Shown: positions 71 to 41,917 of the stretch, piece by piece
Numbering within the stretch: the stretch's first letter is position 1
Layout: every line of letters starts with the position of its first letter
Assembly: GCA_010405405.1 (NCBI GenBank)
Contig: MU004230.1
Coordinates: forward strand, 1,894,627 to 1,958,626
DNA length: 64,000 nucleotides
Direction: 5' to 3'
DNA from: Microthyrium microscopicum
Lineage: Eukaryota
Translations under genes and position numbers: made by a program
Notes under the pieces: model-generated
What the model saw: only the letters and a program-made list of their open reading frames with translations
Database searches by the model: none
Told to the model about the DNA's origin: nothing

Positions 71-1065
71 ATGCCGTCCAAGCTATCATCACTGAACAAG
101 CAGAACCTCCTGCTTGAATTGTACGTCTTGGCTACTTGTATAATGGTGATCTATTTCTTGCTAAACTACTGTTAGTGCCAGTCTTCAGCACGCGTGTCCA
201 GAAGGCGTCTTTGTAACCATAACGCCAGGCAACCCAACATTATGGGCAGGAGTTCTTTTTGCTCGCAAAGGTAATGTGAAAGCAAGGCGTCTACATAGTA
301 TTCATGGATTGATCATTATCAGGTCCATACATGCCGTCTATTCTGCGATTTCAAATCTCATTTCCCGCCCAATTTCCATCTCAGCCTCCACTGGTCACCT
401 TCTCCTCAGAGATCTTCCACCCCTTACTCACACCTCTAAGCACTTATACATACACTACCAGTGCCACTGATACGGAGACCGTGAGCGCATCTGACCAGGA
501 AAGGCTTCCCCCAGGCGGCTTTAGTCTTCGGCATGGATTCCCTCAATGGTTCAAACAGGCACGTGAATCATCTGGAGCCAAATCTCCTACTGGCCTTATC
601 ACTGGAAGCTCAGCCGCATCTACTGTAACAGTCTACGAAATTCTTGAATACCTTAAGCTCGCTTTCAACGAGGAGTCCTTCTTGGACTCAATTCCTCTTG
701 AAGCGGCGGCCAACCCCGGCGCATATCACGCATGGAACGCCCATCAGGCCCGCAAATCTAGTCGAGCCGTCTCGCCCCAGTCCGGTCCATCTAGCAAACG
801 AAGTAGCGGTATTGAGAATATGTCAGGGACCTTGAGTGGTGACAATGAATCTGCTGCTGCTACCAACAGAGGACGTAAGCCGGGCCAATGGAACTGGGAG
901 GGTGTATGGGAGGATCGCGTAAAAAGAGGAATACAGTCCACCGTCGCAGAACAGGTTCTATTCGGAAGCTCGAGCGCGGCGGATGAACTCATCAGATTCT
1001 CCAGTCTGGATCCGGATCAGCTTGGTGCTATTCTACAGGAGATGGGGAAGGACCGGGCAATATGA
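71..1065 (+). CDS. Catalytically inactive E2/UBC-fold protein, AKTIP/FTS (crossbronx)-like; probable FTS-Hook-FHIP complex subunit
   Basis: Exons 71-120, 176-270, 323-1065 (GTACGT..TTAG and GTAATG..TCAG introns) splice to 295 aa. MPSKL..LLLEF..CPEGVFV..PTLWAGVLFARKGPY..ILRFQISFP..PPLVTF..IFHPL is a UBC fold with no catalytic Cys after the HP motif. Confidence 0.8.
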
Positions 1066-1423
1066 TCACGAGCTTCAAGACCATCAAATTCTACTTAGAA
1101 AGCGCTCGGCTCAGTCGACTGAATTTGTGCAAGGTGTAGTGTATGCTTCAGCCCATCGCACTTGACAAGGTGGCCATCTGAGGCGATGGAGGAAAGCATG
1201 CTCCAAGTGCATCTTGTTAACGTGGCGATCCTGCCTACCTGAGTAGAAACCCATCAACAATCACTACTCCAAAGATGAACAACATGGCATCCTCAAACTA
1301 TCAGATATCCATCAACGTCCCGGAGACCAGTTTGTTTATCGGATCTTTGCATTTTAGAGTAACTCGCCCGATATGTTTATGTCTTGGGGCAGTATATCAT
1401 CCGGACAATTGGCGGCTCCCACC

Positions 1424-4400
1424 ATGTCGCGCTCCAAGAAGCCATCTGCTTCCCCTTTGAGAATCCGCAAAACTAGGGAGAATCTCAACGCTCCCAACCA
1501 AGTGGGGCCTTCCAAAAGCAGAAAGACTTTCACCAAAAAAGAAAATGAATCGTCACACTCAATATTCTCCATCCCGCCTCTTTATTCTGCACCTCTTCCA
1601 CCACTCTATACACCAAGCGAAAACTCATCCTCTGTGACCATCACCAAAGCCAAGAGCACAATGTGAGATCGCCTCTATTCCTTATGAGCTGAGCTAACTA
1701 GTTATCCAGGGACGGATTTGCCGTTGGATTCATGACCGCCGCCAGCCGCGATGCTGCTGAGAAAAGAGCTCGCTACAAACCTGCGGCCGAGCCTGCTGCT
1801 CGACCACAATCAGAACCCGCTGTTCAGCGCTCGATGTCGGATGGCCAACAGAAGGATGAAAGCCTCCGTCGTCGAGTAGTCACACAAGTCAAAGCTAAAT
1901 TGCGCAAGCCGAGCAAGAAGGTATGTCAAGTCTTCGCTCACCCTAACCTGGTTACCAAGGAGACGCTGCTACTGTCCCTCTCGGCTCTAGCAATGCTTAC
2001 TATTCCTCCTTGCACCTCCATAACGACGGCTTCAGAGGCATATTTTAGCTAACAATAATAGGACCATATTGATAAGACCTCAGAATCTCTATTACCGGAA
2101 CCGCAATCCCCAGCACCGGTCCAAGAATCACAGTCTGACGTGCCTGTCCACGAACGTCAACCTGAAGCACCGGTCCAACTACATTCAGTTGCTTCTGACT
2201 GGGCCACCATCGCAAGCACTACAGATTCACGCGGTGCAGTGGAAGACTCTATCGTTGCTTCCAGCCAATATTCTATGGATGAGTCCGTTGGCAGTAGCAT
2301 CCTCGATCTGCGACATGTCTCTTATGACAGCATGACGGCTGCTCCAGATATCGCCAACGTCTTACAGAATCGAAAGCCCAGAACTTCCGTGGCAATTAGC
2401 GACGAAGCTTTTCCATCACACTCTGATTCTTCCCACAACAGTATGCATCCTAGTGCATTTAGCAGCGATGCTTTGTCCGGTCAGGCGCAAACAACTGCTC
2501 ATACGAGCATTTTTGATTCTCCATCGCGTCGAATGGGTGGATATGAGTCTCAAGCACACCCCTCAGCTTCCTATGAGCCTCCTACACTGACACTGAGCGC
2601 TTCTCTTTCTGTCTCTGCAGACATGGAGTCTTTAGAATCTTCACACGAAAACCGAAATGCTTAGTTGGCAATTCAAATTCGTGGTGAAGTGAAGAATCAG
2701 TCGGAAGATGAGAAATCTTCCCAGGTTGTTCCCTTTAACGCTCCTAGCTTAGCAGTGGCTATTGTTCTGGACAACTCGTACGTCCTCCCCTGTTTAATCC
2801 ATCAATATACTAATGATTGATAGTGCATTCGCATCTCCAATTTTCCTGCAGCAGGCAACTGAGCAAATCTTGAGAATCGCAAGTCTTCTACGCGGTCGTG
2901 CCGATCAATTTGGAATTTATGCCACTGTTACTGCTGGAGATGGAAACTCTTTGATGGAGCATGAGGTGTGCCCGCTGGGCACTCCCGCGCTTGGCCCCAT
3001 TCGCCGTGAGCTTCATGCTCTTAGTTGTCTGGATGTTTCGAGTCGTCACTATCCTAAGATAGGTGGTGCTGTTACACAAGCGTCTGACGCTCTGCGAGAG
3101 CTAGACTTTGCTCAACTCCATGAGACGCGAATTGCCAAGCGTGCCATAATAGTTATTGCTCCTCACTCTGTGGATTTTCAAGATGATGTCAGAGAGCTAG
3201 AAGGTGTTCAGCTTCACTATTTGTCCCCTGGTATTATACCAAGTCGGTCAAAGTGTTCAAGTGCTTACAGATGGTTCATCAATTCGCCCTTTGCTCAAGG
3301 ACGTCAGAAAGACGACATCCAGAGCGATGCTGAGTGGAACAAGACCTTGGGTGCACTATTGTCGTCCGCTCGTCATGCTTCGAAATTGGGAGCGATTCAG
3401 AACGTCAATATCGAGCTCATTCCAGGCCCTGAGACGAAAATCATTGACAAGATTAGTGATCAGTCGCTCGATTGCCTGCTTCCCGGGCAGAGTATTACTC
3501 TTCTGGTCAACCTAGAAGTCGAATCGCTTCAGGAGTATGATGGTGGTCAGCCAGGACCCAAGAAGGCTCCCGGCCACGGCTTTACCATGTCCCGTGCTAT
3601 CAACGACTTGGAAGTCATGCTCGAGAAGGTCCTTCGCGAGCTCATTACCGTGAAGGTAACTTATCAGCACTCGCATTTCCATGGTCACACTATGAACATG
3701 GAGGAAACAACATGGATTCGGCGTCCCGCTCGCACTTCACCAGAGTATGGTCCAAGGTAAGCTGCCGTGAATATACTCACTTTCGGGAACGTATGAACTA
3801 ATCTATTGCAGTCGACGGTTCTCGCAGATGCTCAGTTCTACTCACCAAGCTCTAGCTGTGAGTCTTGCTTCCAAGCCACAAGCTTCCGAGAGCATTGCAT
3901 CCCTTCAATTGTATTCTTCACATCTCATGGGCCTCGATGAAGGACTACTTGACCTCCTACATGATGAGTTGTGGTTTCAGCACAATGCAGACAGCACACA
4001 GTCTTTAGTGTCTCGATTCGAGCGGCAATCCCTCTCTTACAATGGAAGCATGCTCCGCAAGCGTTCCCAGCTCGATGTTAGCAAGCTTCGAGGAAACTCC
4101 TTCCAAAGCATGGGAAATTCTAGCCTCGAATTGCGCCGCTCTCGACTCGGTGATGGCACAAGAGGCACCATGCGATCGCCACTATTTCCTCCAGCTCCGA
4201 CCTCTACGCCCTTGAGCCCACAATTTCCACACCGTCGCGAATTCAGCAGCCAGTCTGTTGACAGCAATGGCGAAGACCCAGCTCGCATGATCTGGCGCAA
4301 TTTGCGACAAATGAGCAGAGGCAACGGCCCCGATACACCCCTTGAAGAAGACGAAGATCGCTTTGAAGAGCCGTGGATGAAAGAGAAGGTGGAAAAGGTG

Positions 4401-4511
4401 AAGCAGGAGGCTTTGCGTAACCGTCGAAGTATTGGTCAGGATACCTTGCGCAGCATGGCACGCTCGACTTTTGAGCGAGATGAATCAATGCCCAACATGC
4501 CTTTTGAGTAA
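1424..4511 (+). CDS. Five-exon protein with disordered N-terminus and vWA-like domain; one in-frame TAG at 2662-2664 (candidate editing- or readthrough-dependent gene, or recent nonsense allele)
   Basis: Exons 1424-1662, 1710-1920, 2062-2777, 2824-3756, 3812-4511. All four introns are GT..AG with CTAAC/CTAAT branch sites and correct phase, giving 933 codons with a single internal stop at codon 351. The vWA-like strand LAVAIVLDNSAFAS is formed across the exon 3/4 junction. Confidence 0.75.
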
Positions 4512-4531
4512 GAAGTTCGAGATTCCACTCC

Positions 4532-4670
4532 ATGTCAGCGAGAAGATTAATGTCAGCAAAAACTCATTGTCAACAAAAACAACATTGTTCGCGGAAAGAT
4601 GAATGTCAGCGGAAAAATTGATGCCAACGAAAAGACAGTGTCACCGATCAAACGAATGTCAGCGATGGAT
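4532..4670 (+). repeat. Degenerate 17-18 bp minisatellite (core ATGTCAGCG..), 8 units, just 3' of the stop codon
   Basis: TGTC/TGTT/TGCC cores start at 4533, 4551, 4568, 4586, 4604, 4622, 4639 and 4657. Confidence 0.65.
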
Positions 4671-5073
4671 TAGTTAGACAATTGTAGTCAGGTTTGAAAA
4701 GGTCATTACTACCCCTTCTGGATATGGGGGTTGGGATGCATGGCTCTTACTCTAGAGTAGAGTATGTCGTCTCAACCAGAATTAAATCATTGTTGCATAT
4801 TCCTCTAGGCCCATGCTATAGCCATATCCGTCTAGCATTGTTATTGTCGAAATATCTTGCCTTTCTAAGGCGACCACGTACAGTATGTATCTTTGCTTGA
4901 GCTCAGCGACCTTCATGCCACGCCGATTTCAAGTTGAGGATACTACTAGCATGTATAATCGATACCCCACTGGATAACTCGATCCACCTCTGCGATGCAA
5001 TGCACCCTTTGGAGCTGAAGTGGTAGATCTGATTCAGTCTTCAGTCTTGCAGAACGGCTGCAGAGTACTTTGC

Positions 5074-21672: not shown

Positions 21673-22656
21673 CAGAAGAAGTTTCCACTGACCCCTTCCT
21701 AAAGCCCCCCCTGCCAGAGGCCCCCCTTAAGCCTCTCCGCCACTCCTGCCGTTAGCACACACTAAGTTAAAAAGTGCCTTAGTGCCGCCACCAAATCTAA
21801 TAATTGGCTAAGTATAGAAGCTAGGACACTTTGGCAAAACAAGGAAATTTGAGTATAAACCTAAGGCACTAGCGGCCCTTAAGGGACGCGTCTAGATACC
21901 AAACAAACCTGAAAATTAACGATAGCGACGTTAACAAAGCGCGTGCGCGTGAAGTAAGTATATGTAGGAGTAGGGAGCACTAGGGGATAGGATCTACGTA
22001 GGAATAGGTATAGGAATAGGTAGGGAAATAGGCGTAGGAATAAGAGCTCAAAAGACGTAATTAAAGGTGTTAAAGATATTAAAGATATTAAAGATATTAA
22101 GCTACTAAAACACGTCTTAATTAAGATTTAAAGGGAGTAAAAGTGCTAAGCCTTGCCAAGCCTCTCTATAATTAGCTAAAATTACTTATTAATAAGATAG
22201 ATTAGATTAGATTGCTAAGGCTTAGCACTAGTCCTTTACTAGAAGACGTATTTTAGTAGCTTAATATCTTTAACATCTTTAATATCTTCAACACCTTTAA
22301 TTACGTCTTTTAAGCTCTTATTCCTGTGCCTATTCCTCTACCTATTCCTGTGCCTATTCCTATATAGATCCTATCCCCTAGTGCTCCCTACCCCTATATA
22401 TACCTACTTTACGCACGCGCGCGCGCTTTGCTATCTTATAGTTTTTAAGTATTTTAGCTTTAAACGCGTCTTTTAAAGGGCTACCAACCCTTGCCTTAGG
22501 TTTGTTAGGCAATTCTGTCTTAAGCTTAGACCTATCATTAAATTGGGTGGCGGCGCTACCTGATTTAGTAACAGGTCTAAGCTCAAGCTAGTGGAGGGTA
22601 AAGGGGGGCCTCTGGCAGGGGGGGCCTAAGTAAGGGGTCAGTGGAAACTTCTTTTG
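21673..22656. mobile_element. Non-autonomous foldback DNA transposon (Mutator/MULE-like), RIP-mutated, 984 bp
   Basis: Exact 9-bp TSD TCACACACT at 21664-21672 and 22657-22665. Termini CAGAAGAAGTTTCCACTGACCCCTT.. / ..AAGGGGTCAGTGGAAACTTCTTTTG. The inverted repeat continues, with divergent patches, almost to the centre. No ORF. Confidence 0.88.
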
Positions 22657-25600
22657 TCACACACTTCAAGTTCCCGCCTTAACCACTCCCCTCCAGTCTG
22701 TCAACTCTGTCCTCCAGTAAAGCCACAGCCCACAGGCCAAGCTCCCAGGCCCGTCTGCACCATGGACAGGCATTGAGCAGGTCCACCCTGCCGAACGGGG
22801 ATCACCGTTGAAAGGGCGAGCATGCAGAAAGCAACCGCCCACTTTACAGACCCACTGCTCTCTCGCGTTCACAATCTTGGTGTCGTTACCTGTTACGCAT
22901 TGGCGGCAACCTTTTTCTTCGCCATGCCATGCCAATTTCTGTAAAAGTCTCTTTGGCCACCGCCGTCTTGACAATCGTCGTACACCACTGGTGAAAATCT
23001 TTTATACACCATCATTTCGACGCGTCCGACATTGATGCTGTGTGCCCTGTTCGGTCTTCATATCCGTTGCGAAAAACTTTTCAATGCTCGCTGCAACCAT
23101 GGCGAAACTTTGATGTGAAGCTTGCCACGCCACCACCAATCTTTTGCCGCTCACTACTTGTCTGGTAGGTCTACTAAGTGGCCTTGCTCAAGGACCCTAC
23201 TTACTTTACGAAACCCCATTTCAATTCTAAACTTATACACATGATCCGATAAGGAAAGCATATCCAGAACTCGACTCAACTGATTGTAGGCCGTCTTGTC
23301 AATTTCTCAAGGAGTCAAGAACCATTCTTCCTTCTTTATCTCCATGGGCCATGGCAGATCAATTACTTTACCTGGTATCCTACATTTGATAACACCACCA
23401 TAGTGGCAGCCAGGACTCAGGAACCAGGGACCTAGCAAGCTTATTACCTTTACGAACCACTAACAAGACCCTTTGTGCAGAGCTCTTTTCTTCTTCTCTC
23501 CCCGTAGACGCGATGAGGAAACAGCGTGCGACTTCAAAGCCTGTGTAATGCTGCGAATGCTTCTGAGACTGGCTGTTACAACATGCCACTGCATATACAA
23601 TAATATTGTCCCAAAAGCCTCCTCGCACGTTGCCAACTTGCCATGTCTTAAACTAGAGGCTGAACTAATACTATACTGATTATTCTGTACCTTACCTTTG
23701 AAGTTTTAATACCCTGGAAATGGATCAATGGTGATTTTGACCCTCGACATGCCAAATGGTGAGTACTGCATAGTCGCCCTACCGTAATCAATTCTACGGT
23801 TATCGAGCCAAACTTGGCAGGTCCTAGTTTCTACTATACATTTGCACTGATTGTTATATAAGATATACAAAAGTATTTCAGCAAGCAAGTCCAGTAATGA
23901 CCAATGTATTGTTTCGCCAGCCATGAACTACTGTAGATATCACCATCTACACAACTATCACAAAGCTGAAGATGAAACCGTCAAAAAACCAGCAAACGTG
24001 GGACCCGCCAGGCATTTGCAGCCTTGTTCAATGCTCCTACGCCAGCCTCCAGGCGGCAACAAAGCCCCGCCATCAAATCTCCCGCCTGTAAGATTGCGCG
24101 TCTGTTTGATCTTGATCTTGGGAAAACTCTTGCTTGGTATACAAAAAATTATCGTATCGCTATCATGCTATCATCTATCACCAGCAATGAAACAAACAGC
24201 TTCCTTGGATATCCGCGGAGTCCTTGTACACGCGGCTGGTAGATATAATACTTACTGTAATTATTACTCCTAGGAGAGTAGACTAATCAAGGGCAGCAGA
24301 GTGGTTAGGACTTGTAATCGTTCAAGGTTTGCTTATCTATGCCGCAATGCCGCTAGGATAAACAACACCGTTTTTGTAAAATCTGCTTTCAGCCCTCGTT
24401 CTTTTCTTGATAGTGTTGCGAGTCTAATATATCACACTCTCCCAAGGGTGATAAGTAACTGTACGATATCACCATTGCAATTTTGTTCTTGGTAGACGGA
24501 CAGTGTCACGTAAGACGAGAGTTGAAAATGTTGTGATGTGCCACTTTGGAAAGTCAGTCGGCGGATGCACGCCATGCCGCTTTATGAGCGACGCGCGAGC
24601 TAAAATAACAGGATCCGTTCACGAGTTGAACCTCCATAGCGTGGATGGTTTGCGGCCAATTGACCAATGAAGTCAAAGATATGACAGCCCCTCATCAGCC
24701 ATAGATTATTGCGTGCAGAGCACAAATTCATGTGAATGAGGTGATTATCAATTTGAATATAACGAACTTAAAGCATCGAAGACGTAAATGCATAAGAGAA
24801 TTATGACATTGTGTAGATGCCATTTACAAATGCTTGCATTGAAGGTCTACATGGTAGTAGGAAGCAACTGGGAGCAAGGAAGTATCAAGACTCAAAAAGC
24901 TACGCAATTCACTAAACCTGTTCGGTACCAGGACTTCCAGGCTCAGCACCAAGCAATAAACCTTTGTCTTTTTTGGATTGACAAATGCATATCTAAGCGC
25001 CAGCTCTGGTGTTAAGGAAGATATAATCAGGATTATACTTTCTACCAGGCTGTCGGAGCGATAGAAGGCCACTTTTCTCCCGCAGTCTGCTCAAGCTCAC
25101 TGATCAAATTACGGGCCGCCGTGCCGTAGAAATCTGTATGATCAGGCTGATCTTTCCAGGTGTAGAGAAGGCGATTACTTGACATCGTCTTCTGACTACA
25201 AACCACAGAGACTTTGGTTCCACGGTAATCGCTAGTAGTAGTTGCAAAACTCCATTTTACTCTGGGGCAGTTAGCGGCTCTTTTTGTATGGATAGAGCTC
25301 CATTTCCATATTAACGGGCCGGCAAGCTGTTTACATCCGAGCACTTGCACAGAAACCTACCAACCAATATAAAAAAGGTGTATCTTGAATTGACACGAGC
25401 CGCTCTAACACTTACCATACAGCCCGGAAAAATAACACGCATCACAGCTATCCCAATATCGGTAGCTATGGTAGCCATAGACGTGTTCACGTGTACTTGT
25501 AAACAATTCTTAAAGGATGCTGCTACGATAATCCTTGATCGGATCATGGATGTGTAGCAAAGTTAGAGTAGGAACCGTAATTCAGAATCCCATGCTGCTT

Positions 25601-28600: not shown

Positions 28601-31600
28601 ACCATGCTGTTTCCAAAGCAGTTCATTCCACACTCGATGCTAACCCATGCTATATAACTGCTGGGGCATAGATTTTCATGCTTGACATCCAAATCTAAGT
28701 CGAGCCGCTTGAGTCAAAGCACTAATCGGCGGTGTGTTTTCTCCTATCAAACACCCCCTCTTAACGTTCGATCTGTCGCAAGGAAGAAAAGTACGCACTG
28801 AACACTAAGCAATATATCTTTGATTTGATAACCCCTCACACCCCACTCGGAAGCTATGGCCTTGTTAGGAAATGTGTCAATTGTATATTTCTGAGCACAC
28901 TTTGGCATTCAATGGCGATGTATGGATGTGAAATGCAAATGTGCCAACCTTACACATTTGTTGATCCGGAGAGGACTCCGTGATAAGAACACTGCAGTCT
29001 ACTGCAGCAAGCCTTGTTATAAAAGCGCTTTGAATCGGCTTCTTGTACGCCCTGACTGGGAATCTCGGAAACAGGGCTCTTATCTTCTCAAAGTAACGCA
29101 AAATAGACCCTTTAAATCCGTATATTTGGTGTTTTATACCACCATGACTTGGAAGCTTCAAAGCACCACCTATTTACCATTATAAGAGCTGTCAGAATTG
29201 AAATAGCGCATGATTGGAGAGCTCAAAAAAAGTCAAAAATATCTGCACTGCACCCCATACTGCTACCTAACCTTAGCGAGTGGAGTTTTGATACAGATTA
29301 AGTGCTGGTTCCAGCTCTTGTCAAGCTAGAGTCAGTGGCATGCGGCCATCGGCGTACGCCACCACGCACTCCAACAAGCAGACGTGCCATTCAAATCGAG
29401 TCTAACACTCTCCTGCCATCCAGTGCTGTCAAGAATCTACGACATGAAGACACATTCAGGGTTCACATAACTTACATAGTATCTTTTGCCCCTCACCAAG
29501 CTGCAGATCAGTGCTGTACGTTCCCTTTAAGGCAGAGGTCCATCGCCATACTAGTGATTGTGGATATATGCAGCATATATGGTGTGGTAGCAAAAAACCT
29601 TACAACTTGATAATTAAAAGCACCAGGGACCCTGATCGACAGGTATGAAAGCATATCATAGAGATAGTGGCCGCTCGGTCCGCACACGGTACCTTTTCAA
29701 ACTTGCGAGACAACAAGGGCGATCTGGGTGTGGTAGGGTCCTTAGGAAGCGTAAACTCGTTATCAGTGAGGTCGTTTGGTTGCGACCAATCGAACAGTGT
29801 TGATATTGGCCAAGGGTCGTACCGTAGTGCTGGCGGGCGAAATTGATAAGGGGATTGGCAGTGCCAATGCAGTAAGGCTGCGGGCTGGGTGTGCAAGGCT
29901 GGGGATCTTGGAGGCTATCTTACCTATTCCAGTCGGTGCCGATGGTATTGTGAGAAGGTCTATGAGTTCTTTCTCCTATACCGGAGCTTTTGTCTAAAGG
30001 TGTTTGGTTCCGTTCAAAGATAATGGACATAAGATATGTTAATGTCAGTAGTCGTAGGAGCAAGTAGATTACACTTGATCTTTGAAGCAACCAGACCCAA
30101 TAGGAACGAACAGTTACCTTTCAAACGCTATAGGTAGTAAGTGAAGCCATTGGCTTTGGAACTATACAAATACATGGCATCGTCAGTTCAGAGATACACA
30201 CTTTTGGACCCTTTACACGTCAAATCTTTAGAGAGTTCTGTAGGTAGCATTGGAGCCCTTGCATAGTGGAGAATAATAGAACTCCACTCTCACCGCCTAG
30301 ACCGTGTCTTAGGCTAGAATGCAAATTTTTTCCTACCTCTCAAACATTTATGGCCTACGAATCCCTTAACCTACATCGACGTTGTGGCGTGCCGCTAGTA
30401 ATCCCTAGATCTACCGTTCTAATTTAAAAGCGGTTACTACTACCAAAATTTTGTAGGGTATAGCTAAAGGGCTATTATCTAAAGGGGCTTAATAATTATT
30501 ATGAAGTACAGCATAAATTATTACATATAAATTTAATTCTTAGTATTAGTATTACTAAATTTATAAATACTCTATAATCTTTTTCTCTAGATTAATATAA
30601 TCCCCTTCTATTACTACTAAATAATTTAGTTAGTTTTTATCTAATATAGTAATAAATTATATACTTATAATGCTTATAATATAGCCTAAAATAATGTTTA
30701 TAAAGTAGAACTATATCTAGATATTTAATATAATGCCTAGTAGTAGTAAAAATATATCTATTTAGATAACTATTAGCTTATTACTAATAGTAATAGAAAC
30801 ATCTTCCTCTTCTACTACCTAAAGTAAAAGGAATAAGAGTATATTAACTTATAGTGAGTTAAATAATAGGTAATTTAGATTTAGGATAAATGTTAACTTA
30901 AGCTCAGTAGTATCTTATCTAGTTAACTTTAATTTTATAACTAAAATTAATGTATTTCTTACTAAATTCAATGCTATAGTCTTTAATTAGACCTTATATA
31001 TATAAATTCTAAGCTAGAATTAATTAAAATTGTCTTATATTTAATAGATATTATTAATAATACTAATTCTAATTATTAGTATAGTTAAGTTATATCTTAA
31101 GCTCTACCTACTAAGCTATAATGTAAGCATTTCTAATAGTTACATTAAGATTAAAAAACTATAGAGGAAACTATATTCTATTATTTAAAATAAATATATA
31201 TTAGTATAGAATTTTAAGAGCTTTTTAACAGTACTATTTTTAAGAAATAATATTAAGATTTAAAGTCTATAAAAACTCTAATAGCGTTTTTAGTTTACTT
31301 ACTTTAGTGGTAGACTATATAGTAAGCTTAATGTTAGTCCGTAATATTAACTCTACCTATATAGAAATTATAATCTATAGCTACTATAGGCTATTTGAGA
31401 TATTTATAAGATTTAGAACCCTAAAGATAATTAATATTCTCTTTCTTATACTTTATTATCTTCTTTAGGATTATAGGTTTAGTTCAAATAGCTTTTTTAG
31501 TAATTCTAACACTATAAGATATAGTTAGGAAGTATATAAGAATATAATCTCGCTATACTAGAGATAGTATATCTTAAATAACTAACTTGTTAGTCTCTCT

Positions 31601-32078
31601 TTAAGGCTATTTATTATTCTTCTTATTAAAAAAAGTATACTCTTTAGGGTATTCTTTCTAATTAGTATAAGTAGTACCTACTATAGTAATTCTATACTAC
31701 TATAGGGCATTAAATAGGTATATAGACGTAAAGAAGTTATTATAAAAGATAATAAAGTTGTTTTGCTAAAGAGAAAGAGATAAGTATAATTAGATTACTA
31801 CCTAAGCTATAAGGCTTAATTTAGTAAAGAATATAGGTATATCTCTAGGTGAACTCTAGCTTAACCTATAGGTAAGAATATTAATATTCTCTCTAGTTAA
31901 TTAAAGAGATTTAGAGCGTGTAGTATAAAGCAGGTTGTAGACGTATCTATAATTATATAAAGTAAGTATTTTAAATCCTTTTAGGATTAGTTTACCCTTA
32001 ATATAAATCGTGTTGCCTAATCTACCTATATATTTTACTATTATCTTATTAATTAAGATATAGGTCAACGGCGTAATA

Positions 32079-32307
32079 TGTAAGGATCTAATAGGCACGT
32101 AATTAAGCAAAGAGTAGATAATATTTAACGATCTAGCGTACGAAGAGAGAGAGAGAGGTAGAGTAGAATCTATACTAAGGGAAGAAGAGGATAATGCTTG
32201 GAAGATCCTTAGGGACGCTAGTTCTAATTAGGACTAGCGCTGCTAGATCTTTGTGTAAGATCTAGCTTAATACTAAAGCTATTATGCTTTAGCAAGGAAT
32301 CCTTATA
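32079..32307 (-). repeat. Gypsy 3' LTR
   Basis: TGTAAGGATC...CCTTATA (RIPped ..TACA); direct repeat of 39630-39858, differing mostly by transitions. Confidence 0.92.
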
Positions 32308-35300
32308 TTACTCCTTCTTCTAAAACTAGCGCTCTAAGTTACGTTCTAATCTATGCTATTTTATTCTAGGCTAGGCTAGGCTAGTCTAGTTTAGTCTAGT
32401 CTAGTCTAATCTAATCTGCTCTATATTTAATAAAATGCTATTTGCGCTCTTTTGCTATTCTACTATTCTCTAGCTTGCTAAGGTAACTGTCTAGGTATTA
32501 ATAAACCTAGATATCCTTAGAATACTTTAGTTTATAGCGCTAATAAGGCGCTAATAGTAGCGTAATATAAATAAATAAATAAATACTTTTATTCCTCTAA
32601 CTAGTTATCTAGTAAACTATTACTATCATAGTTAGTAGAGTTAGATATATTAGGTCTAATAATAGGTAGTAACTACTTAGGGTTAGGGCTAGGCTTTGTA
32701 AGATTGTATTTATAGAAGTCGTAGATTAGGTTCGCTACGTTCTTAAGGTCTTTTTATAGTTACTATAAAGGTATATCGTAATTTATCTATTTTATAAGGT
32801 ATTCTAACTTCTTACAGGTGTCCTTTTTATAGTGGCTATTAAGGATTTTATTAACTTACTACTCTTCTTCTTCTTATACTTTACTTACTACTACTAGTAG
32901 AGGGTTATATTAACGTAGAAGTTCTATATTGTTTATAATAGTATATAGTAGCTAAATGTAAAATATAAGGTATATCTTTATATACTTTAGTAGGTTAAGT
33001 TTAAATATAATAGCGTTAAGCTTCTTTAGGATATAGAATAGTTCTACGCTTTTATTATTAAGAGTTTTAAACGCGCGTATTATATAGTAGTTTTAAATAT
33101 CTAGACGTACCTAGTCTTTAGGTTAAAGATCTAGTGCTACATATTAGTGCTTATTAGCTTATTTAGCTTATTATACTTATACCTATATTAGCTATTCTAT
33201 AAGATAATTATATATATTTTTATAGCCTTCCTATATCTTATTAGCGTCTTTTTATTCTTATTAAGCTAAAGAGGAGGAGTATTAGTACGGTGCTAGTGCT
33301 TAGTAAGCTAATTTAAGTCTAAATTTAGGGAGGAAGTTATATTAGATCTTAAAGAGAGTAAAGCTTATCATTATATTAATAGCAAAGTTAATAGTAAACT
33401 TTATAAATAGTAGTAACTAGACTTAGTTATCCTAATTTTAGTTAATAAAAGTATAAAGATATTACTTAAGTATTAATATTAAGATTTCTATAATTCTATT
33501 AGTTTATAAGTACTATATAGTACTTAGCTATAGTACTATACTTACTTAATTATATAATTATTTCTAAAACGCTAAAGTAAACTATAATCCTCTATCTAAT
33601 AAGATTATATTTAGCTATCCTATTAATTTCTAGACTTAATTTATAAATATAAGAACTATTATTTCTATAGAGAGGTTAGGTAGGGGGACAAAGCGTCATT
33701 AGTAGGTATATTAGTCTATAATAATTATAACGTAACGAAAAGTAATACCTAAATAGATATATTAAGATAGAGAGATAGTAAAGTTAATTAAGATATCTAA
33801 CTATGCTTACTTTAGTAAAGGGAAAGACTAAAGAAGTTCTTACTTCTTTTAGTAGATTAGTTTAGTAAAGATATATTTATATTTTAAGATGTACTTCTTT
33901 ATATTTTGTAATATATATAGCTACTAGTAATTTTGCTAGAGCTAGTAATAAGTAGTTATTAAGCCTTTATAATCTATAACTTTATAGTAGTAGGTATATA
34001 TTATAGCGTGATAATAAAGCTTGTCTTTAGATATTAGAATACGTTAGTAATAAAGGACTAGACCCTTTACTAAGATTATATAGTTACTAAGCTTAATGTC
34101 TTATTATTCTAGGATGCTAAAAGGAAGATATAATAATCCTTCTTGCTTAGTATAGTAAATAGTATTTAGCAACGCATCGTCTTTACCTACTTCTATTATT
34201 TCTATTAGAAACTAATTGACGTTAAAATTTAGGGATTTGTTAAGCTCTAAGAAGTTGCCCTTAGGCGCGTTCTTAGGCTGGTTTTTATTACTAAGGTTTA
34301 CTATTATAGGGTTCTTTAATAACTCTTTTGTTTTGGTAGGAAAATCTAACTTATTTGTAATAATAGTAGTAATCTATATAAGAGATAACGTAATAGGTTT
34401 AACTAGTAGGCGTGCTATCTTAATTATATACGTAGTATTAAATTAGTAGAGAAAAAGTAGAGAGTATACTTAGTGCTAAATATATAAATTATTATTATTC
34501 TAGGGGAGATCTTAAGAGTACTAAGTTAGTATATTTGCTTTTTTATTAGCTAGTCTAGGATAATATATAATCTTAAAGTAGAACTATAATAGAAATTCTG
34601 CTTAGCGTGCTTAATAGTGTAAAAGCTTTTTAGTAATTATAAACGTCTATAGATTTTGATAGTTAAAGAATACTTTAATAAGATTGTTAGTAGAGAATAG
34701 CTCTAGTTCTTATTTCTTAAAAGCGTATATAATTATAAGAAGCTTTTTGTTATAAATATTATAGTTATACTTAGCTAGAGATATCTTCTTTAATAGGAAC
34801 GCTATAGGATATAGATCTTTATTATTATTTTTTTAAGATAATACTTCTACGTATACTTAGTTTAACGTGTTAGTTTTAAGCTAGGTTTCCTTAGTATAGT
34901 TAAAGTGTTTTAGAATAGGTGCTATTATAAACGCCTTTTTTAGTTTATTAAATGCTTAGTCTTTAGGACCTTTAATATCTTATAGGAAGATAGTTACGAT
35001 GTCCTTCTTTATTAAAGCTATAAGAGGTATAGCAATTTCTAAGTATCCTTATATAAAATAATAATAGAAGTTAGTAAAACTTAGGAAAGCTTAGATATCT
35101 TTTATATATAATAGTTATTTCTATTCTAGTACTAATTCTACCTTTATTAGATCTATCTTAATACTTTTTATAGTAATAATTAGCTCTAGATATTTTACTT
35201 TTATAGTAGTAAACTTTAATTTATAGATATTAAGATATAGACTAGCTTTTTCTAGTTTGTTAAGTACTAAGTATATATAAGTTATATGTTCTTTATATAT

Positions 35301-38300
35301 CTTACTAAAAATAAGAATGTCGTCTATATAGACTATAGTAAAGTTGTTAAGATACTCTATTAGTATATAGTTAATATATACTTAAAAGGTACTTAGAGTG
35401 CTTATTAACCTAAAGAGTATAATAATAAACTTATAGAGACTATATTATATAAAGAAGGCTATTTTGTGCTTATCCTTAGGTTTAATTTATATCCGCTCGT
35501 AGGCTATAATGACGTTAAATTTATTATAGTATTGTACTTAATATAGCTTTGCTAAAGTATTAGAAAGTAATAGTAGTATGTTTTTGTTTTTATAAGAGAT
35601 TTTATTAAGACCTTAATAATTAATATAGACTTAAATACTTTTACTAGGTTTATATACGTATAATATTAGTACTATAAAGTATAATTTAGAAAGGCGTATA
35701 AAGCCTTTCTCTAATAGACTTTCTAGATACTATTTAATAATAATATTCTATTTTAGGTTTATGCTAGTATTATATTATTTAGGTATAGTAACGTTTAGTA
35801 TAAAATTAATAGAATAATTAAAACTTAGGTAGTAGGGTAGTAATTTATTTACTTTTTATAGGTTAAAGACTTTAAGATAGTAGTAAAACTCTTTTAGGAT
35901 TATCTTATAAAGTTCTTTGTAAGTAAGATAAGGTTGTTTATACTTTTCTTACTACTTCTTAAAGTCGTGCTTTAAGATAGCGAATAGGTTAATCACTACG
36001 TTATTTATAAAGAAGATTAGGTTTAATATTCTTAAAAGATTAAATAGTTTTAGTTCTTTTATTAAAGGGCTCTTTAGTAAAGGGCTATCTAGTAGCTTCT
36101 TTTCTTTAGGCTTAGTAAAGTTCTTAGGATAGAGAACTTCTACTTTCTATCCTTTTTATTTTACTAATATTATTATAATACGTATAAATATAACTACTAC
36201 TTTTTTATCTTTAAGAAGTTTTATAACGAAATTATATTAACTATAAGTATTAACTTTAATAGGGCGGTGTATTAAAATATAGTTATAAAAGTAATAATAA
36301 GAGTTAAATATAATAGTCTTTTCTTTTCCTCTTAGGTATACTTTATAAAGTTAGATCTAAGGGTTACTAAGAATAAGGTTATAAGTAGCTACCTTTATAA
36401 TGAAGTAATATATTTATTTAATATAACTTTTAATGCGTATAGTAACTAGTATAGCTTTATTGATTTTAATAATAGTTTTCTTATTTATAAGCTTTACTAA
36501 GCGTAGTTAATTAAGCTATATTTTTGATATATTATGCTATTTAATAAAGTAAGTATAGATAATTCTAAGTGCGTTACTACTAGTATTAATTAGAATGTTA
36601 TATTTCTTAAAGGCGTTAGCCTTTAGAATTAATATGTCTTTAACTATTGTCTATTATAGCCTTATAAAAGGTATATAGTTAACGTTATTTAGTAGTAGCT
36701 ATTCTGAATTAATTACTATTATGAATAGTTAAATAATATAATATACTTCTAGTAGTGGATTTAGGTTAGCTTGCTAAGCTTCTAGCTTTTAAATCCTATT
36801 TTAAATTTAGCCTAACTTATGCTTTTTTTACTAATTATATACTTCTTGTAGATTTAGCTCTTTCTTGCGTTAGTAAGGTAGAGCATTTAGTTTAAATACT
36901 TGCGTAAGTACGTATTAAGTATTTCTACTTATAAAGCGTTCGTAATAGTAGTAAGTATTGCTAAGACCTTTAGTTAGATTTCGTTATTTATTAAGTGAGT
37001 CTTTTATTTATAGGGAGCATCCTTTTGTTTTAAAGTGTAACCTTTCTTACTATACTTAGGGCATTTATTTTATGCTTATAAGGCTAGAAAGATATTATTA
37101 GAGCGGCGTAGACGTTTATTACTATTCTAATTATTGTTATTATAGGCGCCTCTATTCTAGTTCTCTAAATTGTTAGTTAAGTTATTATTGTTAGCGCTAT
37201 TACTATTAGAGTTATTAGTATTAGAATTATTATCGTTATTTTACTTTAGGAAGTTTAGGTCTTACTTTACGTCGTATAGATATATATAGAGTTTTGGGTA
37301 GGTTTTAATATTACGTCTTATTAAAAGATAAATAAATTATCTTAGAAGAAGTAAGCGTAGTTTTATAACTTTATTGTAATCCTCTAGATCTGTATCTTTA
37401 GTCTTCTCTAAAAAGTAGCTTAAGAATTTTATTAGGTTTTTTATAGTCTTTATCTTAGTATCTGCTAAATAGAGCTATTACTTTGTAATATTATATTTAT
37501 TAATTACTTTGTTATAAGTATCTAGGTCTTTTTATATATTATTAATAGTAAGGTAAGGGCTTATAGAGTTGTAGCCTAAGTGACGTAATATTAAAGACTA
37601 TGCTAGATTATTTAGGTTATTGTAGATAAACTAAATCTTCTTTTTATTAGTTAGGTAAAACTAAGTATCTTCTTCTAGAACGTTTAATACCTAATCTTTC
37701 TATTAGTAGTATTTATTTTTATCCTTACTATTATATTATTTAACTATATAATGAGATTAGCTAATATGTAGAGTAGTATTATTTAAGGGGTTAGACTCTA
37801 CTTTTAAGAAAGGTAATATAAAACGCGTTTGTATTAGATTAGGTTAAGTAGCTATAAGTTAATATAGTATAATATTAAGTAATTTAGCGTCTTCTTTATC
37901 TCCTAAGCGTATAAAAGCTAGTATATTATAAGGTTTTATAAAGGTTAGAAGATTCTATATCTACTACTTTATAGTATAAAGATATTAAGTAAGGGATTCG
38001 TTTTTAATATTAAGATTTATAATAGTAGTATTCTAAAGTTGTATTTGCTTACAATATTCTTAGAGTCGTTTTATATAATATACTAACTTTACTTCTATAG
38101 AAGTAGTATAGTTTTCTATTGCTTAGATATTATGCTATAATTAATAATAATTAGAGGTAAGTTTATAGTAATTAATTATACTAATCTAAAGTTCTTTAAC
38201 TTTTAAGAAGAGCTTATCTACTTCTGTCTTATAGTTAACTATAGAGCCTTTTAGGTTATTTACCTTATTTATAAGATTTTAGATCTCTTCTAAGGACTTA

Positions 38301-39629
38301 GTATTTTGGATATTGCTCTTTTGTAATTTATTATAGTAAAATTAGTAGCGTACTACTATAGCTTAGTTTATAGCTAAAGTAGCGTAAAGCTAATTAAATA
38401 AGAGCTAAGGGTCTTTTTAAGTAATTTCTTGCTTTAGCTCTTAAGCGTTATAAATTAGATAGTAATCTTTAAATACCCTAGTAGTAGGATTAGGTTCTTA
38501 ATAATAGAATAGTAATAATAGGTTTAAGGGACCTTTTAGTATAGCTACCTTTAGATCTTTATAGGCTTATATTTAAAGAGAGCCTTAGAAGACTTAGAAG
38601 AATATAATACGTACTGTATTATTAACTATTAGGTAGTTGTTTTAGAAAGCTAGAGGAACCTCTTTACAACTATTATTCTTAAGCTATATGTCTTATAACT
38701 AGACTAATATAGTAAGATAGATTCCTTTAAATATCTTTTCTTCTTTTATATTTTGTATATTCTTATAGAAAGCTAAAGAGGTTACTAGAGTAACTAGTTC
38801 TACTAAGAGTATAGTAAATACTATAGTTTTAATTAGTTATAAGAGTTTACTACTAGGCGTATACTAAATAGGTAATAGGATTAGCTTCTAGTTTACTTAT
38901 CCTTAGGTTAATAAATTAAAGAGTAAGAGGTTATTATCTTTATTAGAATTAATATAAGATAGCTAGCGCTTACTCTTTTCTTATTAAGAAGTCTAAATAG
39001 TAGCTTAAGTAGATTCTTACGTATTTACTACTATTTTCTTTATAAATAAGCCTTTAGGACCTTAATCCTAATAGTGGCTAATAACTAATGTATAGTAGCT
39101 ATAAGAGGGGCCTAGAACTATGTTATCTTAGCGTTCTAGAGATACGAACTATGATTAAGAGCAAGTAGTCACGTTAAGGCTTAGAGGCGTTAAGGGAAGA
39201 AACTCTTTAAGAGGGTTTATAGTTTCGTTAGGTAGTTACGTAGGGGTAATAACGAGTAATAATAATTAGATAATTTCTTAATTACTAGGGATAGATAGTT
39301 GATAGATTAAGGGTAATTAGAATGTAGATTAGTAATATAGAGAGAGGTAGAAGGGCAAAGGTTCTATATAGCTAAGTAGAGGGGTTCTAAGAGCTTAGAC
39401 TACTATAAAATCTAAGTGTTTATATTAAACACCTTATAAAGACAATTAATTAGTGTTTTAGAAAGTAGTAAAAATATACTACCTAATCGTATTAAGGAGT
39501 TTATAAGTAAGAACGCGCGTAAGCTATCTCTTAAGTATAAGTTTTAAAATCTAGGAGCGCTAATCCCTAAGGATAAATACGTAAATAATTTTAAAGTTAA
39601 TTTTTAGTTTTAATAGGTATGCTAGATTA

Positions 39630-39858
39630 TGTAAGGATCTAATGAGCACGTAATTAAGCAAAGGGTAGATAATATTTAACGATTTAGCGTATAAAGGAAG
39701 AGAGAGAAGTAGAGTAGAATTTACGCTAAGGAAAGAAAAGAGTAATGCTTAGAAGATCCTTAGGGACGCTAGTCTTAATTAGGACTAGCGCCGCTAGATC
39801 TTTATATAAGATCTAGCTTAATACTAAAGCCATTATGCTTTAGCAAGGAATCCTTATA
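39630..39858 (-). repeat. Gypsy 5' LTR
   Basis: Direct repeat of 32079-32307 with the same length. Confidence 0.92.
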
Positions 39859-41917
39859 TAATATAAAGCTTAAAGCGTATTTATAGAGTAGAGGATAAGG
39901 ATTTAATTTTAGTAAAAATAGGCTTTTTTTAATAGGTCTATAATAGCGTAGGCGATAGTAATATTATTAAAGTTCTAGTAGTAGTATCTATAATAGGAAT
40001 AGTAGATATATAAAGATATCTTTTAATATACTAAAACTTACGCTATAAAAGGAACTAGCTAATAGAATAATAGGGATTAACTTTATCTTAAAGCTATAGG
40101 TTATCTATATTACTAATTCTATAAGTACTTAAATAGATGTAGATTCTATAGAATATTTTAATCTTATTAATACTAATTAATATAGGAATGCTTTCTTTAG
40201 GTGTAGTATAGTAGTATAATTAATAATTAAGGGTATTCTTATAAATAATTTTAAAGTCCTCTTGTTTCTAAAATAGGCTAAAGAATAGTAATAGCATATT
40301 AAATCTTATTATATAGTCGTTAGGGCTAATAGGTATTAAGTACGCAACTAAAGGTACTATATTATAGAATCTAGCACCTAATTCTATAATATTTTAAGAA
40401 GGAATAGTTGCTATTAGATTAAAGAAGTCTATAGGTAGGTTAATTAATATTTTAATATAATTTAGTAATAGTAATAAGACGTAGTACTTACTAGGATATT
40501 TATAGATTACTACTTTTAACTTATTGTTACCTTTATAGCGCGCGTTAAGTAAGTTACAATGTTTAGGATCTCTATAATTAGGCTTGTAGGTATAAAAGAA
40601 GTTAAGATTAGCGTTATCTAATAGTACTAATAGTTTATTTAATTCGTCCTTTTTAGGATCTAAAAAGGTATCTATTATATTCTTCTAATCTTAAGTAATA
40701 ACCTTAAAGTCTCTATCTTCTAATTAGTCTTTAGCCTAAGTTTTTATAATATCTAGAAGATTTAGTAATTTTAGTATAATTAGCTAGTAGTAGAAGTATA
40801 AAGGGAAGATCTAGGCTAAATGTAGGCTATAGAATAGGATCTAGAAGGTTAAGATCTTAAAAAATAGGCGGATTTAGTTACTAAAGTACTATAATACTAA
40901 AACTTATCTAAAATATTTAATATTCTATATCCTATATCTCTAAGATAAGACCTATCTAATAAATATAAATTTATATAGGGCAAGATATTAGGGGTTAAGA
41001 ACTAATTAAAAGACGCCTTAGATTTAAAGTTTATAATTCTCTCGTAACTCTACTAATTAGGCCCTTTTAGGTAAGGAACCCACATACTACTATAACGTCA
41101 ATTTCTAGTGCGGATAGGTTAAGGGATAATGAGCTGCTAAGCTGCAAGTAGATATAATCAATTGAGTAATAGGAGTGCTGATCTGGGGAAGAACTAGAAG
41201 AGGTGGATATGGTTCTTCTCATGGATTCGAATAACTTCAAGGATGATTGTGGAGGAGAGGAAAATCCACATGAATTAAACGAACTCGTTAATAATTGACC
41301 ACGCCACTGATGTGGATCGTTGATTTCGATGCCTACCTAACCTATCATGCCCATCCAGTATAACAATCGAGAAAATGTACCTACCAAGAAATTCAAGGTG
41401 CTTGGCGGAGCTAGATTAACCCAGGGATAATAAGGTATGTTGTGCATCATGGAAACTTTATACTGAGTGAATCATACGAGAATGGATTGACTTTTCATTA
41501 AGTCTCCTGGAGTCCTGACCACTAGGTGAGACTGATTTGTTGCATAGCATGATATGATTGAACTAGAAGAAACAGTTGTTCTAGAAGAAATGTACTACCA
41601 ATAATGGATTGAATATATCTTCTGTGCGGTAGGCTGGCTGTAGAATGATGTATGTAAATTGGATTGGTTCCCAGCGAAGCGGGGTCAGTTGGCAAAGCGT
41701 TGTAGTTCACGCTTTTCACATGCAGATATTCCACATGAGAGATAATCAATGCGGCGGTTAGTGGTTGTCGGAAGAAGGAGCGTGGCCAATCGACTTTGGA
41801 ATGTCAAACGATGGAAACGATCAACGAATTTAGGATGATGGATCGATATGACGTTGGAGAAATCGAGACTCTATGGCCCAACAAAAATACTTCTTGCATT
41901 TGTGATCTGATCTCCGC

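What the first reader, a model, noticed from the sequence alone, without database searches (positions are those of the whole stretch)
2062..2824. Single in-frame UAG in an otherwise intact 5-exon gene: candidate premature-stop-correction gene
Seen: exon 3 reads ..SHENRNA*LAIQIRGEVKNQ..LAVAIVLDNS. The frame stays open for 113 nt past the TAG (2662-2664). It then splices through a canonical intron (GTACGT 2778..TACTAAT..TAG 2823) in exact phase into the next exon, and again into the last exon. About 580 codons downstream are stop-free, and no plausible intron removes the TAG. The locus is ~19 kb from the nearest RIPped repeat in the window and is not AT-rich. Established: sexual-stage A-to-I mRNA editing in Fusarium and Neurospora converts such UAG codons to UGG (e.g. 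PUK1, AMD1), with a preference for U at -1. Inference: Trp fits the hydrophobic strand A-W-LAIQI, so the gene may make a 350-aa disordered fragment by default and the 932-aa vWA-like protein only after editing or readthrough.
Basis: partly seen in the sequence, partly recalled or inferred. Interest (0 to 1): 0.88.

Follow-up and report, generated by a model that had tools for sequence, protein, structure and literature searches.

The report
Stop-interrupted fungal vWA-like gene
A leaf-litter fungus transcribes and correctly splices a conserved gene with one stop codon where relatives have tryptophan; this is most likely an ordinary recent knockout, but RNA editing could repair it, which nobody has shown in this class of fungi.

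Summary
A 5-exon, 932-codon gene (1424-4511, +) has one in-frame TAG at 2662-2664. A spliced RNA contig from a public run has exactly the four predicted introns and keeps the A at 2663. A DNA contig agrees. So this is not an assembly error, and splicing does not remove the stop.

The TAG column is Trp in 10 of 13 alignable homologues, Phe in 2 and Cys in 1. It lies in a confident beta-strand at the start of a vWA plus beta-sandwich domain.

A public protein record is identical up to the TAG and ends there. It names Microthyrium microscopicum, a Dothideomycete. The 581 downstream codons appear in no protein record found.

My searches found no report of it in Dothideomycetes. The Ame1-Tad3 interaction it needs is reported to have evolved in Sordariomycetes.

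- **Best reading (about 0.6):** a young TGG>TAG nonsense allele or unitary pseudogene.
- **Editing rescue (about 0.15):** favoured by the Trp column, the UAG hairpin loop and the intact downstream frame.
- **Not available:** RNA from fruiting bodies, other isolates, relatives' DNA.

The parts
1373..1423 (+). 17 extra N-terminal codons used by the public annotation (start ATG at 1373)
   Evidence: P0057 begins MFMSWGSISSGQLAAPT before MSRSKK. ORF 1358-1666.
1424..1662 (+). Exon 1 (from the second in-frame ATG)
   Evidence: The RNA contig joint 1662>1710 is.
1663..1709 (+). Intron 1 (47 nt, GTGAGA..CAG)
   Evidence: Joint 'skips 47, GT..AG' in the X5 contig. Sequence.
1710..1920 (+). Exon 2
1921..2061 (+). 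Intron 2 (141 nt, GTATGT..TAG)
   Evidence: Joint 'skips 141, GT..AG (cut +2)'. Sequence.
2062..2777 (+). Exon 3. It holds most of the disordered N-terminal region and the first strands of the folded domain, and it contains the stop.
2662..2664 (+). In-frame TAG (codon 351), aligned to a conserved Trp
   Evidence: Present in a DNA contig and in a spliced RNA contig. Column is W in 10, F in 2 and C in 1 of 13 alignable homologues.
2639..2689 (+). Predicted mRNA stem-loop. The inner hairpin is 2658-2670 and presents UAGUU (2662-2666) as a 5-nt loop.
   Evidence: MFE -17.4 kcal/mol, z -3.43; lowest local energy of the 21 UAG sites in the mRNA.
2778..2823 (+). Intron 3 (46 nt, GTACGT..TACTAAT..TAG)
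   Evidence: Joint 'skips 46, GT..AG'. Sequence.
2824..3756 (+). Exon 4: vWA-like alpha/beta domain plus beta-sandwich strands. It is not annotated as protein in any record found.
   Evidence: No protein record found.
3757..3811 (+). Intron 4 (55 nt, GTAAGC..CAG)
   Evidence: Joint 'skips 55, GT..AG (cut +2)'. Sequence.
3812..4511 (+). Exon 5: helical C-terminal region with conserved motifs (D.AR.IW..R, AL.N.RS.G.DTLRS), ending at TAA 4509-4511

Best explanation
This is a real, transcribed, correctly spliced gene of a Dothideomycete. By identity to a named protein record, the species is Microthyrium microscopicum. The gene belongs to a conserved family found in Dothideomycetes and lichen-forming ascomycetes. 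Family members have a long disordered N-terminus, a vWA plus beta-sandwich core of the Sec23/24-trunk or ArnB type, and a helical tail.

A single G>A transition turned the conserved Trp codon TGG into TAG, inside the first beta-strands of the folded core. Most likely this is a young loss-of-function allele or unitary pseudogene, either of the sequenced strain or of the species. Ribosomes would stop at UAG and make only the 350/367-aa disordered fragment. The remaining 1.85 kb would travel as an unusually long 3' UTR, and the gene has not had time to collect further damage.

Shown here: the stop, the splicing, the ancestral Trp, the fold, and the truncated public annotation. Inferred: that no rescue takes place.
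For: - TAG is present in a DNA contig and is the majority base in a spliced RNA contig. That contig has 0 A>G differences over the 3,212 exonic bases of 1200-4700.
- The public record P0057 ends exactly at ...SHENRNA.
- No protein record covers the downstream 581 codons. The best library hit is 46% identical, only 2 distant proteins appear at 544-2000 aa, and none at 170-543 aa.
- The organism is a Dothideomycete. Four papers hold 'A-to-I', 'RNA editing' and 'Dothideomycetes' together. The passages I read in three of them report no editing in that class, and the fourth I saw only in the listing.
- A 2020 review calls pseudothecia-forming fungi uninvestigated.
- A passage of PMC11087585 says the Ame1-Tad3 interaction evolved in Sordariomycetes.
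- TGG>TAG is a single TpG>TpA transition, a common kind of change.
- There is a slight excess of lineage-specific substitutions in the window's protein: 37-45 against 22-34 in eight relative-rate tests, with p<0.05 in 2 of 8.
Against: - The stop is TAG, the only stop that A-to-I editing can turn into Trp, and it sits at a Trp column.
- Its A lies in a 5-nt hairpin loop. The local fold is the most stable of the 21 UAG trinucleotides in the mRNA. Only 2 of 21 meet the strict test of loop <=8 nt and stem >=4 bp.
- All 581 downstream codons, all four introns and the terminal stop are intact.
- The window keeps 48 of 58 well-conserved family columns, rank 18 of 42 sequences, and exon 4 folds confidently (pLDDT 82.5). 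So there is no visible decay.
- The mRNA is still made and spliced.
- Six of the 8 relative-rate tests are not significant.

All of these points also fit a very recent nonsense mutation.
Confidence: 0.6

Rival explanations
1. This is a premature-stop-correction gene. During fruiting-body development an adenosine deaminase converts UAG to UIG, which is read as UGG (Trp), so the full 932/949-aa vWA protein is made only in that stage. Vegetative cells make only the disordered fragment. This would be the first such site in a Dothideomycete.
For: - The stop is TAG at a column that is W in 10 of 13 alignable homologues. In F. graminearum, PSC stops derive mainly from TGG (section 9 of PMC10776026).
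- The A lies in a predicted hairpin loop, z -3.43. That places it among 2 of 21 UAG sites under the strict test. Fungal editing prefers hairpin loops.
- If the closing U-G wobble pair opens, the loop is 7 nt with U-A-G-U at the positions of U33-A34-G35-U36 of a tRNA anticodon loop. This is my own reading of the fold; the tRNA numbering is recalled.
- The downstream ORF and splice sites are intact and the mRNA is expressed.
- 50 of the 71 Fusarium PSC genes (71%) encode disordered regions, as this gene does.
- Qi et al. note premature stops at PSC sites in species of other classes where editing is undetermined.
Against: - No editing has been reported in Dothideomycetes in my searches.
- A review reports that editing was not found in cleistothecia of A. 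nidulans or apothecia of B. cinerea.
- The Ame1-Tad3 interaction is reported as a Sordariomycete innovation.
- The one RNA contig reads A at 2663 and has no A>G anywhere. Its developmental stage is unknown, and contigs hide minor variants.
- The +3 base is U, not the preferred A/G.
- U at -1 and G at +1 hold for any UAG.
- None of the seven named organisms in the family is a Sordariomycete.
- No VWA or Willebrand entry occurs in tables S1-S6 of Qi et al..
Confidence: 0.15
2. Translational readthrough: a small share of ribosomes decode UAG with a near-cognate tRNA and make some full-length protein at all stages, keeping the downstream frame under selection.
For: The downstream frame is intact and the mRNA is expressed. 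There is a stable local RNA structure around the stop.
Against: - The context GCU-UAG-UUG-GCA does not match the leaky contexts I recall (CAR-YYA after UAG, C at +4, A-rich upstream). These are recalled, not tested.
- The stop lies inside the hairpin loop rather than upstream of a stimulating structure.
- The inserted residue would rarely be Trp.
- There are no data on protein.
Confidence: 0.05
3. The truncated N-terminal disordered fragment is itself the selected product. The vWA part has been discarded and is only beginning to decay.
For: The public annotation treats the 367-aa product as the gene. The transcript is kept and spliced.
Against: - The stop falls about 25 residues inside the conserved domain, after its first strand. 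It is not at a domain border.
- The N-terminal region found no relatives by sequence. The only hit was the window's own record, 1 of 386 candidates.
- The downstream part shows no decay.
Confidence: 0.1
4. Artefact: a sequencing or assembly error, or a mis-modelled intron.
For: None found.
Against: - Two separate libraries, a DNA contig of X3 and a spliced RNA contig of X5 from another sample and study, both read TAG with 0 differences.
- All four introns are confirmed by the RNA contig.
- 0 of 132 GT..AG pairs across the stop has a full donor plus a branch site.
- Homologues align without a gap on both sides of the stop.
Confidence: 0.02

Closest known systems
PSC (premature-stop-correction) 'pseudogenes' of Fusarium graminearum and Neurospora (PUK1, AMD1, 71 PSC genes; Qi et al. 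2024, PMC10776026)
   Same: One in-frame UAG in an otherwise intact, expressed, multi-exon gene. The stop stands where relatives have Trp. The A lies in a hairpin loop. The protein has a long disordered region.
   Different: The organism is a Dothideomycete, a class in which editing has not been shown. No A>G was seen in the only RNA available. Conservation of the TAG in relatives could not be tested. The family has no named Sordariomycete member, and no keyword match in the PSC tables.
Young unitary pseudogenes or strain-specific nonsense alleles
   Same: A single transition creates a stop at a conserved residue. The rest of the gene is still intact and transcribed. The annotation is truncated at the stop.
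   Different: The particular combination seen here (TAG, Trp column, hairpin loop) is also what an edited site would look like. No second isolate is available to show that the allele is private.
vWA plus beta-sandwich proteins of the Sec23/24 trunk and archaeal ArnB type (PDB 8s05, 5a8j, 4fx5)
   Same: The model of the full-length Venturia homologue matches these with Foldseek E 4.6e-14 to 1.1e-11. Strands before the vWA domain, including the Trp strand, join strands after it.
   Different: Sequence identity is 10-12% and TM-scores are low (0.15-0.33). No Pfam family matches. The metal-site motif reads D-N-S-x-x-x-S rather than the canonical DxSxS (motif recalled). The family also has a long disordered N-terminus and its own helical tail. 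Its function is unknown.

Membership tests
A-to-I edited PSC genes (fungal restorative editing) | In-frame UAG in an otherwise intact, expressed ORF | tested here: met
   one TAG, 581 open codons downstream, and a spliced RNA contig that carries it.
A-to-I edited PSC genes (fungal restorative editing) | A>G at the stop in RNA of the sexual stage, absent from DNA | tested here: inconclusive
   The only RNA is one contig of run X5, of unknown stage. It reads A, and contigs drop minor variants. No raw RNA reads or fruiting-body runs were listed.
A-to-I edited PSC genes (fungal restorative editing) | Organism belongs to a lineage with demonstrated sexual-stage mRNA editing (Sordariomycetes, Pezizomycetes) | tested here: not met
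   P0057 names Microthyrium microscopicum, Dothideomycetes. No report for the class in my searches. The Ame1-Tad3 interaction evolved in Sordariomycetes.
A-to-I edited PSC genes (fungal restorative editing) | Preferred context: U at -1, A/G at +1 and +3, A in a hairpin loop | tested here: inconclusive
   -1 U and +1 G are automatic for UAG. +3 is U, which is not preferred. The hairpin-loop preference is met: 5 of 21 UAG sites lie in hairpin loops and 2 of 21 pass the strict test.
A-to-I edited PSC genes (fungal restorative editing) | Post-editing residue (Trp) fits the family; TAG conserved in related species | tested here: inconclusive
   Trp is ancestral: W 10, F 2, C 1 of 13 alignable homologues. 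TAG conservation is untestable because no DNA of relatives could be fetched.
von Willebrand factor A (vWA) fold proteins | Rossmann-like alpha/beta fold matching solved vWA domains | tested here: met
   Model of homologue P0013: the folded part starts near residue 335 and its blocks mostly have pLDDT 80-97. Foldseek hits ArnB, 4fx5, integrin beta and Sec24 at E 1e-14 to 1e-8. The window's own exon 4 has pLDDT 82.5. It hits Sec24, ITIH1, BatB and 4fx5 at E 1e-3 to 1e-2.
von Willebrand factor A (vWA) fold proteins | Sequence match to Pfam VWA models | tested here: not met
   0 Pfam families for the three exon translations and for the full-length homologues P0013 and P0033. Two source records call homologues 'VWFA domain-containing'.
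von Willebrand factor A (vWA) fold proteins | Canonical MIDAS motif DxSxS after beta-1 (motif recalled) | tested here: not met
   The window reads VLDNSAFAS. Homologues read DNSxxxS/T or DLSxxTS.
Unitary pseudogene or nonsense allele | Disabling change relative to intact orthologues | tested here: met
   The stop falls at a conserved Trp inside the folded core.
Unitary pseudogene or nonsense allele | Relaxed constraint downstream, or intact allele in other isolates | tested here: inconclusive
   48 of 58 conserved columns are kept, rank 18 of 42. The relative-rate excess is significant in 2 of 8 tests. No other isolate covers the site: the contigs of X6 and X7 miss 2662.

The most novel reading that the evidence does not exclude
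Microthyrium microscopicum repairs this UAG to a Trp codon by A-to-I mRNA editing in its fruiting bodies. That would make it the first premature-stop-correction gene, and the first evidence of sexual-stage mRNA editing, in Dothideomycetes. It would imply either an older origin of fungal mRNA editing or a second, Ame1-independent route.
Probability: 0.15. Interest if true: 0.8.

Novelty: new member of a known kind. Interest (0 to 1): 0.38.

Why it matters
Which classes of filamentous ascomycetes edit their mRNAs is an open question. A 2020 review says fungi forming pseudothecia had not been examined. Qi et al. note unexplained premature stops outside Sordariomycetes.

This locus gives a cheap single-amplicon test in a Dothideomycete: a transcribed, spliced gene whose only defect is a UAG at a conserved Trp, placed in a hairpin loop. 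If no editing is found, the result is still useful in a modest way. It would show that the public 367-aa 'hypothetical protein' is the stump of a conserved 930-950-aa vWA-type protein, and that the locus is a recent gene loss.

Tried and rejected
- **Whole genome:** none is held. Genome-wide counts of TAG against TGA at Trp codons, and a search for Ame1/Tad orthologues, were therefore impossible.
- **DNA of relatives:** The scan with A2 (P0056 + P0004) matched 510 stretches, none a relative. A 26-base exact pattern next to the stop found 0 matches.
- **Protein searches:**
  - Exon 3 with X at the stop found only the window's own record, 1 of 386 candidates.
  - Exon 4 at 170-543 aa found none of 1586 candidates.
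  - Exon 4 at 544-2000 aa found 2 of 3405 candidates.
- **Sequencing runs:** the index listed no RNA holder. X5, listed as 'RNA?', proved to be spliced when laid. X6 and X7 gave five small identical pieces, none covering 2662.
- **Rejected idea:** the closest homologues (469-597 aa) start just after the site, which I first took as a hint of a conserved stop. One 90% cluster of Cenococcum holds both a 921-aa form and 512-538-aa forms. P0056 and P0004 begin with unrelated residues just before the exon-4 start. I read these as ORF calls on unspliced DNA that begin inside intron 3, so the short forms say nothing about the stop.
- **Homologues and the Trp column:**
  - 12 of the 52 hits were left out of alignment A3.
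  - Two of those (P0034, P0054) could carry the column and were checked. P0054 has W. P0034 could not be aligned there and was not counted.
  - 29 of the 41 homologues in A3 lack the region.
- **Other checks:**
  - Pfam gave nothing.
  - There is no paralogue in the window.
  - The relative-rate and conserved-column tests cannot date the stop.
  - Earlier findings of the scan had nothing on this genome, and only unrelated cases by words.
- **Papers:**
  - Tables S1-S6 of PMC10776026 were searched by keyword only.
Membership in the Fusarium PSC list was therefore not tested by sequence.
- **Not used:** Complex prediction and the protein-atlas search.
Full report
**Observation**

Reading the window and translating a five-exon model gives a 2799-nt CDS. 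The exons are 1424-1662, 1710-1920, 2062-2777, 2824-3756 and 3812-4511. The CDS has 932 codons plus a terminal TAA and exactly one internal stop, TAG at 2662-2664 (codon 351), in the context GCU-UAG-UUG. The frame runs on for 113 nt to a GTACGT donor at 2778. Intron 3 is 46 nt with TACTAAT and a TAG acceptor. 581 stop-free codons follow.

**Independent check with public reads**

The run index listed seven runs. I laid four of them on 1200-4700.
- **X3 (DNA):** possibly the source of the assembly. One 20,359-nt contig covers the stretch with 0 differences.
- **X5:** a different coded organism label, sample and study. One 4,717-nt contig covers the whole stretch except four GT..AG gaps. These are exactly my introns: 1663-1709, 1921-2061, 2778-2823 and 3757-3811. 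It shows 0 other letters.
- **X6 and X7:** five small identical pieces, none covering 2662.

X5 therefore holds spliced RNA. The mature mRNA keeps UAG as its majority base, and no isoform in that contig removes it. A scan of 132 GT..AG pairs spanning the stop found none with a full donor consensus and a branch site. Assembly error and mis-splicing are excluded. Because these are contigs, a minority of edited molecules cannot be excluded, and the developmental stage of the RNA is unknown.

**What the gene is**

Exon 4 (310 aa, P0002) finds 52 proteins with E<=0.001 in the representative library, the best at 5.5e-76 and 46% identity. The named members are:
- Dothideomycetes: Venturia effusa, Verruconis gallopava, Coniosporium, Phyllosticta capitalensis, Cenococcum geophilum.
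- Lichen-related ascomycetes: Agyrium rufum, Vezdaea acicularis.

No named member is a Sordariomycete. Pfam matches nothing, either in the window's exons or in two full-length homologues.

An AlphaFold model of the 929-aa Venturia homologue, built with a 29-sequence alignment, shows:
- residues 1-331 almost entirely at pLDDT below 50, read as disordered;
- a confident core starting near residue 335;
- a helical tail.

Foldseek matches the core to archaeal ArnB/ArnAB, a bacterial vWA protein (4fx5), integrin beta and the Sec23/24 trunk at E 4.6e-14 to about 1e-8. TM-scores are low, 0.15-0.33. The window's own exon 4 folds with pLDDT 82.5 and pTM 0.78. It hits the same set weakly, at E about 1e-3 to 1e-2. 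'vWA-like' is therefore right at the level of fold. The metal-site motif is not the canonical DxSxS (motif recalled; sequence).

**The stop sits on a conserved Trp inside the folded core**

Alignment A3 holds 41 homologues: 40 of the 52 hits plus P0056. Twelve of them have sequence upstream of the exon-4 boundary. In the column of the TAG they show W 9, F 2 and C 1. Of the 12 hits left out of A3, two could carry the column. P0054 has W, and P0034 could not be aligned there. The total is W 10, F 2, C 1 of 13.

The alignment continues without a gap about 25 residues upstream of the stop, so the stop lies inside the domain and not between two genes. In the Venturia model the Trp (W361) is in strand 358-370, in a block with pLDDT of about 94, just before the first strand of the vWA sheet at 386-392.

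**Organism and public annotation**

Searching with exon 3, with X at the stop, returned one protein. P0057 is 367 aa, 100% identical, and named as a hypothetical protein of Microthyrium microscopicum. It ends exactly at ...SHENRNA, the residue before the TAG, and starts at ATG 1373.

The species is a Dothideomycete of the order Microthyriales. No protein record covers the downstream 581 codons. In effect, the public annotation treats the conserved domain as 3' UTR.

**Does the editing model transfer?**

The papers I read in part say the following.
- Sexual-stage A-to-I mRNA editing is known in Sordariomycetes and in the Pezizomycete Pyronema (PMC11156358, passages).
- The same review reports that it was not found in A. 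nidulans cleistothecia or in B. cinerea apothecia.
- It prefers U at -1, A/G at +1 and +3, and hairpin loops (PMC11156358, section 5).
- F. graminearum has 71 PSC pseudogenes. Their TAGs derive mainly from TGG, and 50 of the 71 (71%) encode disordered regions (PMC10776026, sections 6 and 9).
- The ability of Ame1 to bind Tad3 evolved in Sordariomycetes (PMC11087585, passages).

A search for 'A-to-I' + 'RNA editing' + 'Dothideomycetes' gave 4 papers. In the passages I read from three of them, the class appears only in comparisons of orthologues. The fourth I saw only in the listing. 'A-to-I' + 'pseudothecia' gave one review, which calls such fungi uninvestigated.

**Features that still favour editing**

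The mRNA around the stop folds into a stem-loop with MFE -17.4 kcal/mol and z -3.43 against 200 shuffles. The A lies in a 5-nt loop, UAGUU, closed by UGCU/GGCA.

As a control, I folded the surroundings of all 21 UAG trinucleotides of the spliced mRNA.
- 5 have the A in a hairpin loop.
- 2 pass a strict test (loop <=8 nt, stem >=4 bp).
- The in-frame UAG has the lowest energy of all 21.
- Among 82 UA dinucleotides, 25 lie in hairpin loops and 10 pass the strict test.

The context is thus in roughly the best tenth, which is modest support. U at -1 and G at +1 are automatic for UAG, and +3 is U, which is not preferred.

**Signs of decay**

None is clear.
- The window keeps the consensus in 48 of 58 columns that are at least 70% conserved, rank 18 of 42 sequences.
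- Relative-rate tests against its two nearest relatives, with four outgroups, give 37-45 changes unique to the window against 22-34. They reach p<0.05 in 2 of 8 tests.
- RIP indices of the gene are normal, with a composite of -0.88. Strongly RIP-like blocks lie at 30-42 kb and 46-54 kb.

These results fit either a very recent stop or a maintained frame. They cannot tell the two apart, because the nearest relative is only 49% identical.

**Weighing**

Without the machinery known in the class, the prior for editing is low. The TAG-at-Trp pattern and the loop raise it a few-fold. I estimate:
- about 0.6 for an ordinary young nonsense allele or unitary pseudogene;
- 0.15 for editing rescue;
- 0.05 for readthrough;
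- 0.1 for a selected truncated product;
- 0.02 for an artefact.

The rest is unassigned. The decisive data are RNA from ascomata, other isolates, and genome-wide TAG/TGA counts at Trp codons. None could be obtained here.

**Verdict**

Its transfer from Fusarium rests on a wrong assumption about the organism. The locus is a clean, cheap test case for mRNA editing in Dothideomycetes, but on present evidence it is most likely an ordinary recent gene loss.

Noticed in passing
window 2665-4511: The conserved vWA-type domain and tail (581 codons) are not present as protein in any record found. The public model for this locus (P0057, 367 aa) stops at the TAG, so family-level searches will miss this species' copy.
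   Followed up: yes
window 313-1065 (+): The upstream neighbour has a weak ubiquitin-conjugating-enzyme (UQ_con) match: E 3.4e-06, 27.1 bits, right at the cut-off, covering only residues 4-39. The X5 RNA contig runs on from this gene into the vWA gene (record positions 1-1131 lie upstream of 1200). A contig across two genes does not show a single transcript.
   Followed up: partly
window 30001-42000 and 46001-54000; weak at 22001-24000: AT-rich blocks (24-33% GC) have strong RIP-type dinucleotide bias: TpA/ApT 1.2-1.8 and (CpA+TpG)/(ApC+GpT) 0.2-0.8. They alternate with gene-bearing DNA of 44-51% GC.
   Followed up: partly
homologues P0004, P0056, P0071, P0080-P0083: Many database members of this family are 500-600-aa ORF calls on unspliced fungal contigs and start inside the conserved intron just before exon 4. 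One Cenococcum cluster holds both a 921-aa form and 512-538-aa forms. The position of intron 3 therefore seems widely conserved in the family.
   Followed up: partly
window 2658-2670: If the closing U-G wobble pair opens, the loop around the stop becomes 7 nt, with U-A-G-U at the positions of U33-A34-G35-U36 of a tRNA anticodon loop. That matches the natural ADAT substrate type (tRNA numbering and substrate list recalled, not tested).
   Followed up: no
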